From Escherichia phage MagusPhagus: DNA of 54,396 bases. The translations under genes were made by a program, and so were the position numbers. The first letter of the stretch is position 1; each line of letters begins with the position of its first letter. The stretch lies in the sequence record PP925836.1; one strand, given 5' to 3'. The notes under the pieces were generated by a model. The model did not search any database and was not told the origin of the DNA. It saw only the letters and a program-made list of their open reading frames with translations. This document shows positions 19,532-20,738 of the stretch, one piece after another.

Positions 19532-19660
19532 TTTCTCACCTTCTGATTTTGTGATCTGCGTCACGCCAAATCATACCAAAATGGATTGATCGCGGTTTAT
19601 ACAATATGTATATTTTACTCAAACGGAAGCACAGTTAACAAAATGGCGCGGAGGTGTGAG

Positions 19661-19816
19661 ATGGCTGATAAGGTGTGGAGGTTGAAGGTATTTCTGACAG
19701 ACGGAAGGGAAATGACTGTTGCCCTGTATAAAGATGAAGGCGATGCACTTACTGACGCGCTCTTACTCGCTGAAGACGAAAGAGTTTTGGGATACAGACT
19801 CGAACCTGTCAAATGA
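19661..19816 (+). CDS. Hypothetical small protein (51 aa), cargo cassette 1
   Basis: ATG with RBS GGAGGTG; opposite strand to the tail genes. Confidence 0.4.
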   Translation: MADKVWRLKVFLTDGREMTVALYKDEGDALTDALLLAEDERVLGYRLEPVK

Positions 19817-19828
19817 TGGTTTAACAAA

Positions 19829-20179
19829 ATGCAAAAATATAGTTTAGAAATATGGACTGATAAATGTGAATGGGAGCGCATGGGCCTGTTCGACACATAC
19901 GTCGCAGCGCGTGATGAAGGTCGTGAGTTACTTCGCTGTTGGTCTAACGCTCGTGATTTTGATATTACTCCGGTGCAAGTGCCGGATAAGGTGGAAGAGA
20001 TGAACCCGAAAGATATTAACTTTAACGTCAATGTTGAATTTGCAGACTCTATGGATCAGTCTTGCCCTGGTGAAATACACGCAAAAGGTTTCCCGGCAGA
20101 CGATCCGCAAGCAAAACGCGAATACGAAAAAGCTGCGAAAGACTTCTGCATAGATAACCTGGGCGCATTCGATAAATAA
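19829..20179 (+). CDS. Hypothetical protein (116 aa), cargo cassette 1
   Basis: ORF following the previous gene on the same strand. Confidence 0.4.
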   Translation: MQKYSLEIWTDKCEWERMGLFDTYVAARDEGRELLRCWSNARDFDITPVQVPDKVEEMNPKDINFNVNVEFADSMDQSCPGEIHAKGFPADDPQAKREYEKAAKDFCIDNLGAFDK

Positions 20180-20188
20180 GGCGGCAAC

Positions 20189-20437
20189 ATGGGGCGGCGC
20201 AATCACGGTGATTATGTGTACACGTTGAAACAGGCCGCCCGCCTCATCGGTTATCATGAGCACGAATTTATTGATTTGCTGATTGAGCGCGGGATACTGT
20301 ACCAGGTCTGTTTAACGCTGTACCCGAAAGCGAAATACCTACAGGAAAAGTTATTCATCATCATGACGGATGAAAACCAGGTGAATCATTCATTCGTCAC
20401 TGATAAGGGATTGACATACCTGAAGGGGGCGTTATGA
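20189..20437 (+). CDS. Hypothetical protein (82 aa), cargo cassette 1
   Basis: ORF in series; no recognised catalytic motif. Confidence 0.4.
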   Translation: MGRRNHGDYVYTLKQAARLIGYHEHEFIDLLIERGILYQVCLTLYPKAKYLQEKLFIIMTDENQVNHSFVTDKGLTYLKGAL

Positions 20438-20438
20438 G

Positions 20439-20513
20439 ATGTGCGAAAATTACGTTATGGAAGTGATTATTATCATCATTGGATTGTTATGTATTCTGCT
20501 ATCGACACTATAA
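20439..20513 (+). CDS. Micro-ORF, 24-aa hydrophobic peptide (MCENYVMEVIIIIIGLLCILLSTL)
   Basis: ATG 1 nt after the upstream stop; single TM-like helix; followed by a terminator hairpin. Confidence 0.3.
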   Translation: MCENYVMEVIIIIIGLLCILLSTL

Positions 20514-20535
20514 ACCCCGCTTCGCGCGGGGTCGT
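20514..20535. terminator. Terminator-like hairpin between the convergent cassette 1 and the minor tail gene M unit
   Basis: CCCCGC-TTCGC-GCGGGG stem-loop with flanking T/A-rich sequence. Confidence 0.45.
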
Positions 20536-20537
20536 GT

Positions 20538-20738
20538 TTATACGCCATCAAGCAAAAATAATACTTCCCTACCCTCTCTCGATCTGCATCCGACATACCC
20601 GTCACCAACATCATGAAGATACCAGATCTCGCCATTATCAGCCTTTACAGTAAGATCGTTGATTTCATAGTCGTCAAACAATGTAAAAGCGCCAGTGCGG
20701 TCCACTACACAAATACCATACATATTAACCTCCATCAT
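20538..20738 (-). CDS. Small protein (66 aa) translationally coupled to M; likely a member of the paralogous small-protein family at 40332-41556
   Basis: ATGA overlap with the M stop; shares the D-x-G-x-(I/L)-W-Y pattern with the 40-41 kb paralogs. Confidence 0.45.
   Translation of the reverse strand: MMEVNMYGICVVDRTGAFTLFDDYEINDLTVKADNGEIWYLHDVGDGYVGCRSREGREVLFLLDGV

What the first reader, a model, noticed from the sequence alone, without database searches (positions are those of the whole stretch)
19586..20738. Cargo cassette 1: opposite-strand genes inserted between minor tail genes L and M
L and M are adjacent in lambda. Here a roughly 1.2 kb insertion carries three + strand genes (51, 116 and 82 aa) plus a 24-aa hydrophobic micro-ORF, bounded by a terminator hairpin, and an extra - strand small gene coupled to M. 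The divergent region upstream (19532-19660) contains a CRP-like palindrome. Opposite-strand insertions inside a tail operon are typical of lysogenic-conversion or defence cargo.
Basis: partly seen in the sequence, partly recalled or inferred. Interest (0 to 1): 0.55.

Follow-up and report, generated by a model that had tools for sequence, protein, structure and literature searches.

The report
Conserved moron operon splitting tail genes
Between two tail genes that abut in phage lambda, this E. coli phage carries a small backward-facing operon with its own promoter and terminator; it is an ordinary kind of phage add-on ("moron"), conserved across its phage group, dispensable in one natural deletion, and of unknown function.

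Summary
Between L (18827-19531, -) and M (20735-21088, -) lie four tightly packed + strand genes (51, 116, 82, 24 aa) and one extra - strand gene after M. All are under purifying selection. The unit has a conserved sigma-70-like promoter, a CRP-like palindrome with invariant arms and a variable spacer, and a GC-rich hairpin.

The window is a complete phage genome of the mEpimmI group (mEp021-like). The unit is not strain-specific cargo. The same layout is in all 51 related loci checked where both L and M were found, and in 34 of 35 complete E. coli genomes carrying this L gene. The exception (strain MS 21-1) has a clean deletion that keeps the promoter. Salmonella phage ES18 fills the same slots with unrelated genes annotated "possible moron". 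Only the distal end varies in gene content within the group.

The 82-aa protein is a stand-alone KilAC/ANT domain with a MerR/Xis-like fold. The 51-aa protein resembles the N-domain of the 116-aa protein. The 116-aa C-domain occurs elsewhere as a separate gene beside a small exported peptide, including in at least one virulent-type (rV5-like) phage. There are no hits to known defence systems.

Verdict: an ancestral, self-transcribed moron operon, a known kind of element. Expression in lysogens and function are inferred, not shown.

The parts
18827..19531 (-). Minor tail protein L (234 aa), the downstream neighbour in the late operon
   Evidence: Pfam Phage_tail_L E 1.3e-71. PGAP coordinates via the 100%-identical record. 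dN/dS 0.04.
19550..19565 (.). CRP-like palindrome TGTGATCTGCGTCACG, centred about 63.5 nt upstream of the predicted + strand start site (about 62.5 in relatives that lack one base)
   Evidence: Exact match to TGTGA-N6-TCACR. Arms invariant and spacer variable in 38 distinct sequences. Retained in the MS 21-1 deletion.
19577..19584 (+). CAAAATGG element, 1 nt upstream of the -35 hexamer
   Evidence: The same element and spacing precede four promoters in the window. It is related to the ACAAAATGG 9-mer, found 13 times against 0.9 expected.
19586..19614 (+). Sigma-70-type promoter of the cassette: TTGATC, 17 nt, TATATT
   Evidence: Promoter scan. TTGAT and the -10 hexamer TATATT are invariant across relatives; the sixth -35 base varies C/A. 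Activity not tested.
19600..19617 (.). 18-bp palindrome over the -10 (TACAATATGTATATTTTA; perfect TACAATATGTATATTGTA in mEp021). Candidate operator, or two back-to-back -10 elements
   Evidence: The only close match in the window (1 mismatch; one other site at 3 mismatches); perfect in mEp021. Conserved. Its role is inferred.
19661..19816 (+). p51: 51-aa protein, likely paralogue of the N-terminal domain of p116
   Evidence: GGAGG lies 6 nt upstream of the ATG. PHROG 29559, unknown function. dN/dS 0.23. hhalign against p116 residues 3-49: probability 73%, E 3e-5.
19829..20179 (+). p116: variable beta-beta-alpha-beta N-domain (residues 1-50) plus a conserved C-module (from M58)
   Evidence: AF2 pLDDT >90 for residues 1-50 and low for 60-116. 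dN/dS is 0.24 for the N-part and 0.09 for the C-part. The family is essentially confined to E. coli phages. The C-module exists as a stand-alone gene elsewhere.
20189..20437 (+). p82: stand-alone KilAC/ANT domain protein, the most conserved gene of the unit
20439..20513 (+). 24-aa hydrophobic micro-protein, starting 1 nt after the p82 stop
   Evidence: The peptide is conserved in at least 9 distinct DNA versions, pN/pS 0.26. In other relatives this slot holds other small membrane or exported peptides.
20514..20532 (.). GC-rich hairpin shared by the converging transcription units (bidirectional terminator-like)
   Evidence: The stem is conserved and the loop variable across relatives. Annotated as a terminator on both strands in mEp021.
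20538..20738 (-). p66 (probably 61 aa from ATG 20723): a same-strand small gene after M, itself an add-on
   Evidence: Homologues (rtp57 and others) lie among small non-structural genes next to the helicase and VRR-NUC genes in Rtp-type phages, not in their tail modules. dN/dS 0.125. Lost together with the cassette in MS 21-1.
20735..21088 (-). Minor tail protein M (117 aa), the upstream neighbour in the late operon
   Evidence: Pfam Phage_min_tail E 3e-28. PGAP coordinates.

Best explanation
This is an ancestral moron: a self-contained accessory operon lodged at the M|L junction of the tail module of mEpimmI (mEp021-like) coliphages.

Shown. It is a compact + strand unit of four real genes, convergent with the late operon. 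It is preceded by a strongly conserved sigma-70-type promoter region that carries a CRP-type palindrome, and it ends at a conserved hairpin. It is conserved group-wide, yet was deleted cleanly in one prophage.

Inferred. Host RNA polymerase transcribes it from its own promoter, independently of phage late transcription, so it can be expressed from the repressed prophage. cAMP-CRP bound near -62/-63 tunes this expression. The 18-bp palindrome over the -10 may be an operator for the unit's only predicted DNA-binding protein, p82. During lytic growth, antiterminated late transcription (a Q-like antiterminator gene is annotated in the 100%-identical prophage record) reads through the hairpin and across the cassette in antisense to reach L-K-I-J.

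Products. There are two paralogous small alpha/beta proteins that evolve fast (p51 and the N-domain of p116). There is a conserved p116 C-module that elsewhere travels as a two-gene pair with a small exported peptide. There is a stand-alone KilAC winged-helix protein, and a membrane micro-peptide.

Most likely role. An accessory function acting at the cell envelope and/or on host regulation. The best guess is exclusion of incoming phage or modulation of the host, with p82 as regulator or SOS modulator. This is by analogy with the proven Lpp exclusion gene of the same phages, which occupies a similar opposite-strand island between the J and tail fibre genes. The 0.7 confidence is for the architecture: an autonomous accessory operon with no tail-assembly role. 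Any specific function is weakly supported, at about 0.25.
For: Gene reality and operon packing.

Promoter, CRP-like site and palindrome: near-invariant in 38 distinct sequences, with the CRP spacer free to vary. The palindrome has no other close match in the window.

Terminator hairpin.

Position and distribution: the layout is conserved in 51 of 51 related loci where both L and M were found and in 34 of 35 E. coli genomes with this L gene. Lambda M and L abut. ES18, whose L is 71% identical, has unrelated 'possible moron' genes in the same slots, including a same-strand small gene after M.

Dispensability: the MS 21-1 prophage lacks p51 through p66 but keeps the promoter region and annotated M, L, K, I and J genes.

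Gene content: p82 is KilAC with a MerR/Xis-like winged-helix model. An isolated KilAC domain suppresses the SOS response in Listeria (PMC9043618). The p116 C-module plus exported-peptide pair recurs in three unrelated phage contexts. The distal slot always holds small membrane or exported peptides.

Context: the Lpp exclusion lipoprotein of this phage group is Gp81 in mEp021 and gp116 in mEp010, numbered just after J (mEp021_79, mEp010_115), and the paper places it in the structural cluster (PMC11893012). A lipobox ORF sits in that island in the window at 12889-13137. The neighbouring + strand island carries a ParE-like toxin domain. All three + strand islands in the tail operon share one promoter architecture.
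Against: - There are no expression data of any kind, so promoter activity, CRP dependence and prophage expression are all inferred from sequence.
- The CRP site is 1-2 bp off the classical -61.5 position relative to a start site that is only predicted. CRP-like sites are over-represented in this phage (16 hits against 5.3 expected). They could therefore bind a phage protein instead, or form a short RNA stem in the L leader.
- Homologues of the p116 C-module with its peptide, and of p66, occur in virulent-type phages (rV5-like and Rtp-like). This fits a lytic-cycle role at least as well as a lysogen role.
- No similarity to any known defence, exclusion or toxin family was found.
- The conserved p116 C-module is modelled with low confidence.
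- Whether the MS 21-1 prophage is viable is unknown.
Confidence: 0.7

Rival explanations
1. An early lytic-cycle accessory module. Host RNA polymerase fires the promoter as soon as the DNA enters. The small proteins act during infection (host takeover, counter-defence, or exclusion of competing phage during the latent period), not in the lysogen. Late antisense transcription then shuts the unit off.
For: The p116 C-module plus peptide pair sits among small non-structural genes of an rV5-like genome, a virulent-type phage, and in two other non-mEpimmI phage contexts. p66 homologues sit next to replication genes in virulent Rtp-type phages. p51 and the p116 N-domain evolve fast, as expected for proteins that meet host or rival factors. 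The cassette promoter shares its upstream element and spacing with the strong early promoter next to the repressor gene.
Against: A fixed opposite-strand position inside the late operon, with its own terminator, is the classical arrangement of prophage-expressed morons. The neighbouring opposite-strand islands carry a lipoprotein of the type shown to exclude superinfecting phage, and a ParE-like toxin. Both are typical lysogen functions. The two readings are not exclusive.
Confidence: 0.3
2. A toxin-antitoxin or abortive-infection style defence unit. The hydrophobic micro-peptide is a membrane toxin, held in check by one of the upstream small proteins or by p82 as a transcriptional autorepressor.
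For: Every variant has a small hydrophobic peptide at the operon end. There is a palindrome over the -10 that an operon-encoded DNA-binding protein could occupy. The adjacent cassette 2 carries a ParE-like toxin domain.
Against: No PADLOC, Pfam or NCBIfam match to any toxin, antitoxin or defence family. The peptide slot is swapped among unrelated peptide types while the upstream genes stay the same, which is unlike a matched toxin-antitoxin pair. The cassette was lost cleanly in MS 21-1 without addiction-like remnants.
Confidence: 0.1
3. A tail-assembly or tail-regulation function. Because the genes are universally conserved at this site in the group, they could be chaperones or regulators needed to build the tail tip.
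For: Universal synteny within the group. p82 is listed as a core protein (PMC11893012).
Against: The unit is on the opposite strand, with its own promoter and terminator. Lambda builds the same tail tip without any such genes. ES18, with 65-71% identical M and L, has unrelated genes in the slot. Homologues of the components sit outside tail modules in other phages. p82 has a DNA-binding fold. The unit is deleted in MS 21-1.
Confidence: 0.05

Closest known systems
Salmonella phage ES18 genes 22, 24 and 25 ('possible moron; function unknown' in the GenBank record NC_006949)
   Same: Same tail module lineage (L 71% and M 65% identical). The slot pattern is the same: an opposite-strand gene between tape measure and M, a same-strand small gene right after M, an opposite-strand gene between that and L, and annotated terminators.
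   Different: No sequence similarity between the ES18 genes and any protein of the window's cassettes. ES18 has one gene in the M|L opposite-strand slot, the window has four. The ES18 intergenic region shows no CRP-like site or CAAAATGG element by eye.
Classical morons of lambdoid phages (lambda lom/bor, HK97 gene 15), from my own knowledge of the Hendrix/Juhala moron concept and of HK97 gp15 as a membrane exclusion protein
   Same: Extra genes between conserved late genes, with their own promoter and terminator and deviating base composition. HK97 gp15 is a small membrane protein encoded within the tail gene region that blocks DNA entry.
   Different: Many classical morons are on the same strand as the late operon, and are single genes. 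This one is a four-gene convergent operon fixed in a whole phage group. No sequence relationship to those proteins was found (PHROGs hits are all 'unknown function').
Lpp exclusion lipoproteins of mEpimmI phages (Gp81 of mEp021, gp116 of mEp010; PMC11893012)
   Same: Same phages. The gene is numbered just after J in both phages and the paper places it in the structural cluster. The window has a lipobox ORF at 12889-13137 (+) in the opposite-strand island between the tail fibre gene and J, with a CRP-like site and an ACAAAATGG copy in its upstream region.
   Different: Lpp is a single lipoprotein with a demonstrated exclusion phenotype. It is present in 40 of 48 genomes and comes in four types. 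Cassette 1 has no lipobox protein and no tested phenotype.
AriS of Listeria phage phi10403S, C-terminal ANT/KilAC domain (PMC9043618)
   Same: p82 belongs to the same Pfam family (PF03374). The isolated KilAC domain of AriS is active on its own and suppresses the host SOS response.
   Different: [quoted passage not shown] No N-terminal partner domain is encoded in the cassette. SOS suppression by p82 is untested.
Class I CRP-dependent promoters (for example lac P1, site at -61.5), from my own knowledge
   Same: A 16-bp TGTGA-N6-TCAC(G) site with the favoured TGTGATCT half, upstream of a promoter with an imperfect -35.
   Different: The predicted centre is -63.5 (-62.5 in relatives with a 1-nt deletion) from a start site that is only predicted. 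Similar sites recur at other control regions of this phage, so a phage-encoded binder cannot be excluded.

Membership tests
Moron (autonomous accessory transcription unit in a phage late operon) | Lies between two genes that are adjacent in related phages | tested here: met
   Lambda M and L abut. In Erwinia phages the L match overlaps the annotated M gene. MS 21-1 has M and L 124 nt apart.
Moron (autonomous accessory transcription unit in a phage late operon) | Own promoter | tested here: inconclusive
   TTGATC-17-TATATT (9 of 12 matches). TTGAT and the -10 hexamer are invariant in 38 variants. No transcript data.
Moron (autonomous accessory transcription unit in a phage late operon) | Own terminator | tested here: met
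   Conserved GC hairpin at 20514-20532, annotated as a terminator in mEp021, mEp013 and mEp010. The T-tract in this window is weak.
Moron (autonomous accessory transcription unit in a phage late operon) | Base composition differs from the neighbours | tested here: met
   GC 0.42-0.48 in the cassette against 0.50-0.54 in L. The GC skew flips sign with the strand.
Moron (autonomous accessory transcription unit in a phage late operon) | Expressed from the repressed prophage and beneficial to the lysogen | not testable with these tools
   Needs RNA-seq of lysogens and phenotype tests.
KilAC/ANT domain proteins (Pfam PF03374) | Profile match above the curated cut-off | tested here: met
   28.7 bits against a cut-off of 25.3, E 1.8e-6, profile positions 23-102 of 108. 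tblastn matches the C-termini of Ant/Rha proteins at 30-41% identity.
Phage antirepressors (Ant-type, two-domain) | N-terminal Bro-N, AntA/AntB, KilA-N or Rha domain joined to KilAC | tested here: not met
   p82 is the KilAC domain alone. No such N-domain is found in p51, p116 or p82.
Known anti-phage defence systems | Match to a PADLOC-DB protein model | tested here: not met
   No hit at E <= 1 for any of the five proteins.
Class I CRP-activated promoter | Consensus-like CRP site conserved at a fixed helical position upstream of the promoter | tested here: inconclusive
   The site is conserved with a variable spacer. Its centre is -63.5 or -62.5 from a predicted start. CRP binding was not tested.
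Tail assembly genes of the lambda-type tail tip | Same strand and transcription unit as the tail genes, homologues in related tail modules, required for tails | tested here: not met
   Opposite strand. Absent from lambda and ES18. Deleted in MS 21-1. The requirement itself is not testable here.

The most novel reading that the evidence does not exclude
The conserved p116 C-module and a small exported or membrane peptide form a previously undescribed two-component system that moves between temperate and virulent-type coliphages. In mEpimmI phages it has been fused to a fast-evolving recognition domain. It has also been placed under CRP control and under a stand-alone KilAC regulator. It would act as a new kind of envelope-level exclusion or phage-host signalling device whose output depends on the host's nutritional state.
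Probability: 0.15. Interest if true: 0.7.

Novelty: new member of a known kind. Interest (0 to 1): 0.35.

Why it matters
If the inferred reading is right, three lessons follow.

- Position is not a reliable sign of recent cargo. A moron can become a fixed, core-like part of a phage lineage, while only its distal end (the small-peptide slot) keeps being exchanged.
- The M|L and H|M junctions of this tail module act as long-lived landing sites. They are filled with different genes in E. coli and Salmonella phages, so they are good places to mine for prophage-encoded host-modifying or exclusion functions.
- The unit offers easy tests. The MS 21-1 deletion is a natural knock-out. The promoter carries a clear CRP-type site. 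The stand-alone KilAC protein could show whether SOS damping, seen for this domain in Listeria, extends to enterobacterial phages.

None of this overturns current understanding. The value is as a well-defined, experimentally tractable set of unknown small proteins.

Tried and rejected
1. Function by sequence. Pfam, PHROGs, NCBIfam and PADLOC gave nothing beyond KilAC for p82 and 'unknown function' PHROGs. PDB sequence searches gave nothing.

3. Deep homologue searches. The p116 family is almost confined to E. coli phages. The word-indexed searches for p66 and p82 returned only close relatives.

4. A match of the p116 C-module to OmpA-like repeat proteins P0077 and P0079 (motif GHAKGxPADDxxAKR). 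This is too short to be a peptidoglycan-binding domain, so I treat it as motif-level resemblance only.

5. The idea that the 51-aa first gene of cassette 2 is a third paralogue of p51 and the p116 N-domain. Rejected: hhalign probability 0.1%.

6. The idea that p66 is a tail protein because it follows M. Rejected from its context in Rtp-type phages.

7. ACAAAATGG as a start-codon context or a sigma-70 core element. Rejected: the ATG is in frame with a gene at only a few sites, and no consistent -35 or -10 lies around it. Its identity as a CI operator, an UP-like element or another binding site remains unresolved.

8. Assuming that the window equals the E. coli 09-00049 prophage throughout. Wrong: J differs at its C-terminus, and the window is a phage genome linearised at the cI stop.

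9. The virion mass-spectrometry list of mEp021 is held only in a figure. I could not check whether the cassette proteins are absent from virions.

10. Rfam and tRNA scans of the whole window found nothing.
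Full report
**What the window is.** The 1.8 kb around the finding is 100% identical to a prophage of E. coli strain 09-00049. It is 88-92% identical (over the aligned part) to the six sequenced mEpimmI phages: mEp021, mEp013, mEp010, mEp044, mEp515 and mEp554. A gene map shows that the window is a complete phage genome of about 54 kb, linearised at the stop codon of the cI-type repressor gene (1-648, - strand). All late genes run on the - strand. The window is not identical to the 09-00049 prophage everywhere: the J gene differs at its C-terminus. 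The mEpimmI group was described in 2025 (PMC11893012). That paper does not discuss the genes examined here. It only lists a "KilAC-like antirepressor" among proteins that are core in its manual analysis.

- The tail genes J, I, K and L (L = 18827-19531) and M (20735-21088) are on the - strand, by Pfam.
- Between L and M lie 1,203 nt carrying four + strand ORFs: p51 (19661-19816), p116 (19829-20179), p82 (20189-20437) and a 24-aa hydrophobic ORF (20439-20513). They are separated by 12, 9 and 1 nt.
- A GC-rich hairpin follows at 20514-20532.
- A small - strand gene (p66, 20538-20738) follows M.
- In lambda, M and L share a boundary base.
- Compared across 36-42 distinct relatives, every ORF is under purifying selection. 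dN/dS is 0.23 for p51, 0.21 for p116 (N-part 0.24, C-part 0.09), about 0.10 for p82 and 0.125 for p66, against 0.04 for L and 0.07 for M.
- The micro-ORF keeps its frame and peptide through many synonymous changes (pN/pS 0.26).
- Two small corrections. L starts at 19531. p66 most likely starts at its sixth codon (ATG 20723, preceded by GGAGG), giving the 61-aa length of its homologues.

**Control region.** I aligned 38 distinct versions of the L-p51 intergenic region. It is almost invariant.
- The palindrome TGTGATCTGCGTCACG (19550-19565) keeps both arms, while its six central bases vary freely. That is the pattern expected of a dimer-binding site. It matches the CRP consensus TGTGA-N6-TCACA in 9 of 10 core positions.
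- The -35 (TTGATC, 19586-19591) and -10 (TATATT, 19609-19614) hexamers are 17 nt apart, and TTGAT and TATATT are invariant (the sixth -35 base varies C/A).
- The predicted start site near 19621 puts the CRP-like site at -63.5. About half of the relatives lack one base, which gives -62.5.
- An 18-bp palindrome (TACAATATGTATATTGTA, perfect in mEp021, one mismatch here) lies over the -10 and has no other close match in the window. It could be an operator, or simply two opposed -10 elements. The scan also finds a - strand promoter-like site reading towards L (TTGTTA-18-TAAAAT).
- None of this has been tested for activity.

**Distribution.**
- Using the p116 family as a probe, I collected 45 loci from IMG/VR, 2 from Logan assemblies and the phage records. 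In all 51 loci where both L and M were found, the order is L | p51 | p116 | p82 | small peptide(s) | hairpin | p66 | M.
- That sample is biased by the probe. I therefore also searched complete E. coli genomes with L alone and with p82 alone. L occurs in 35 genomes and p82 in 34 of them, always next to L.
- The exception, strain MS 21-1, is informative. M and L are 124 nt apart. The CRP-like site, the promoter and the leader up to GTTAACAAAAT are still present, and everything from the p51 ribosome-binding site through p66 is gone. It is therefore a deletion derivative, not an empty ancestral site. It shows that the cassette and p66 can be lost while the annotated tail genes stay intact.
- Within the group the content is modular. 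p82 is 90-100% identical, whereas p51 (43-100%) and p116 (44-100%) diverge fast.
- An extra gene of about 75 aa sometimes sits between p116 and p82.
- The stretch between p82 and the hairpin ranges from 103 to 788 nt. It holds, in different combinations, the 24-aa peptide, a 23-aa hydrophobic peptide, a 38-45-aa peptide with a signal-peptide-like N-terminus (MKIEVLALIIMGLIVFGVHA...), and extra genes of 58, 67 or 87 aa.

**Outside the group.** The nearest L proteins belong to Salmonella phage ES18 and its relatives (about 70% identity). ES18 has the same pattern of interruptions, and all of the interrupting genes are annotated "possible moron; function unknown":
- an opposite-strand gene between tape measure and M (gp22);
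- a same-strand small gene right after M (gp24);
- an opposite-strand gene before L (gp25).

None resembles any protein of the window's cassettes. The junctions are therefore old landing sites that hold different genes in different phage groups.

**The proteins.**
- *p116, N-terminal part.* Residues 1-50 form a confident beta-beta-alpha-beta domain (pLDDT >90), and this part is sequence-variable.
- *p116, C-terminal part.* The part from M58 onward is highly conserved but poorly modelled, as if it folds on a partner.
- *p51* aligns with the p116 N-domain over its whole length (hhalign probability 73%, E 3e-5). One relative (P0050) carries two such domains in tandem.
- *The C-module pair.* The C-module exists as a separate 56-64-aa gene in three unrelated phage contexts. 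One of them is an rV5-like genome, a virulent-type phage. Each time it is followed after about 10 nt by a 47-aa gene of the MK(I/M)RLEVLAL...GVHA...MNF type, the same peptide family that fills the distal slot in many mEpimmI cassettes. This recurring pair is the strongest hint of a functional partnership.
- *p66* has homologues among small non-structural genes next to the helicase and VRR-NUC genes in Rtp-type phages. It is itself an add-on to the tail operon.
- No protein matches any PADLOC, NCBIfam or PDB entry.

**How it most likely works.**
- *Shown:* an independent, compact, conserved coding unit, convergent with the late operon, with conserved promoter-like, CRP-like and terminator-like elements. 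It is dispensable in one natural variant.
- *Inferred, expression:* host RNA polymerase transcribes it from its own promoter, so it can be made in the lysogen. CRP tunes it, and p82 may autoregulate it.
- *Inferred, lytic growth:* late transcription crosses the unit in antisense. A Q-like "antitermination protein" gene is annotated upstream of the lysis and structural genes in the 100%-identical record.
- *Inferred, function:* an accessory role at the envelope or on host regulation.
- *Support for the accessory reading comes from the neighbours.* The experimentally proven Lpp exclusion lipoprotein of these phages is numbered just after J (Gp81 in mEp021, gp116 in mEp010), and the paper places it in the structural cluster. 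The window has a lipobox ORF in that island at 12889-13137 (+). Cassette 2, between M and the tape measure gene, carries a ParE-like toxin domain.
- *The main rival is a lytic-cycle role.* It is supported by the homologues in virulent-type phages and is not excluded.
- A tail-assembly role is unlikely, for the reasons listed under the rival explanations.

**Verdict.** The finding is a correct description of a moron-type operon, a known kind of element. The useful additions:
- It is fixed group-wide, with an exchangeable distal end.
- A natural deletion exists (MS 21-1).
- The M|L slot is shared with ES18.
- p82 is a stand-alone KilAC protein.
- The p116 C-module plus exported peptide pair recurs across unrelated phages.

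Function remains unknown, and interest is moderate to low.

Noticed in passing
window 634, 722, 3769, 12751, 19638, 21178, 24402, 24427, 28076, 40297, 46570, 46634, 54275: The 9-mer ACAAAATGG occurs 13 times against 0.9 expected by chance, mostly in regulatory intergenic regions. TCCATTTTGTA is the longest word shared by the repressor-gene upstream region and the early-promoter region next to the repressor gene's 3' end. What binds it is unknown: a repressor operator, an UP-like element, or another factor.
   Followed up: partly
window 19577-19614 (+), 21179-21216 (+), 24403-24440 (+), 54282-54245 (-): Four promoters share the exact layout CAAAATGG, 1 nt, -35, 17 nt, -10. They are the three + strand islands that interrupt the tail operon, plus a near-consensus early promoter (TTGACT/TATATT) beside the repressor gene. 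The chance rate of such a promoter match after a random position is 1.6%.
   Followed up: partly
window 21257-21978 (+), between M and the tape measure gene: A second opposite-strand island with genes of 51, 84 and 58 aa. The 84-aa protein matches the ParE-like toxin domain PF24732 (32.1 bits against a cut-off of 24.4), so this may be a toxin-antitoxin pair. A 25-aa leader ORF (21183-21260) overlaps the first gene's start codon.
   Followed up: partly
window 24360-25082 (+), between the tape measure gene and the tail chaperone genes: A third opposite-strand island. It encodes a 137-aa protein with a signal-peptide-like N-terminus (no Pfam match). It is preceded by two inverted ACAAAATGG copies 16 nt apart and followed by a hairpin near 25090-25110.
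   Followed up: no
window 12712-13137: An 82-aa lipoprotein gene (lipobox LTGC) on the + strand between the tail fibre gene and J. Its position matches that of the Lpp exclusion genes tested in PMC11893012. Its upstream region has a CRP-like site (TGTGATCTGCGTTACA, 12757-12772) fused to an ACAAAATGG copy.
   Followed up: partly
window-wide; for example 674, 12757, 19550, 21145, 46610: CRP-like TGTGA-N6-TCAC sites (up to 1 mismatch) give 16 hits against 5.3 expected; none of 100 shuffles reached 16. Several sit in control regions, including a perfect TGTGACATTCATCACA at 46610-46625. Either CRP acts widely on this phage, or a phage protein recognises a similar site.
   Followed up: partly
L052:2962-3292; L056:3001-3325; L058:3001-3349: A two-gene pair travels among phages unrelated to the window. 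It consists of a stand-alone homologue of the p116 C-module (56-64 aa) followed after about 10 nt by a 47-aa signal-peptide-like protein. L052 is an rV5-like genome; L058 has the same gene neighbourhood as L052 (identity not tested); L056 has a PhoH, T5orf172 and ClpP context.
   Followed up: yes
L062:4206-4329 (E. coli MS 21-1, NZ_CP146670.1): A natural clean deletion of cassette 1 together with p66. It ends inside the ACAAAAT motif and keeps the promoter and CRP-like site. A short TTGTTA direct repeat at both ends suggests a microhomology-mediated deletion.
   Followed up: yes
L007:4001-4189 (phage Rtp gene rtp57); L008:2992-3192: The small gene that follows M in the window has homologues in virulent Rtp/T1-type phages. 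There they lie among small genes between the helicase/VRR-NUC genes and an exonuclease gene, not in the tail module. Weaker matches occur in 137-138-kb phages.
   Followed up: yes
protein P0050 (172 aa): One relative of p116 carries an extra N-terminal copy of the small beta-beta-alpha-beta domain, as if p51 and p116 had fused. This fits with the two being paralogous and working together.
   Followed up: no
proteins P0077 and P0079: The conserved p116 stretch C-x-G-E-I-H-A-K-G-F-P-A-D-D-P-x-A-K-R resembles a segment repeated 4-5 times in large proteins with OmpA-like repeats (CEGHAKGQPADDNEAKRKLS). It is probably only a motif-level resemblance.
   Followed up: no
window 1-54396 versus NZ_CP015228.1: The window is 100% identical to the E. 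coli 09-00049 prophage around the finding but not throughout (J is 1478 aa against 1442 aa). It starts exactly at the stop codon of the repressor gene, so it looks like a complete phage or prophage genome rather than a chromosomal slice.
   Followed up: partly
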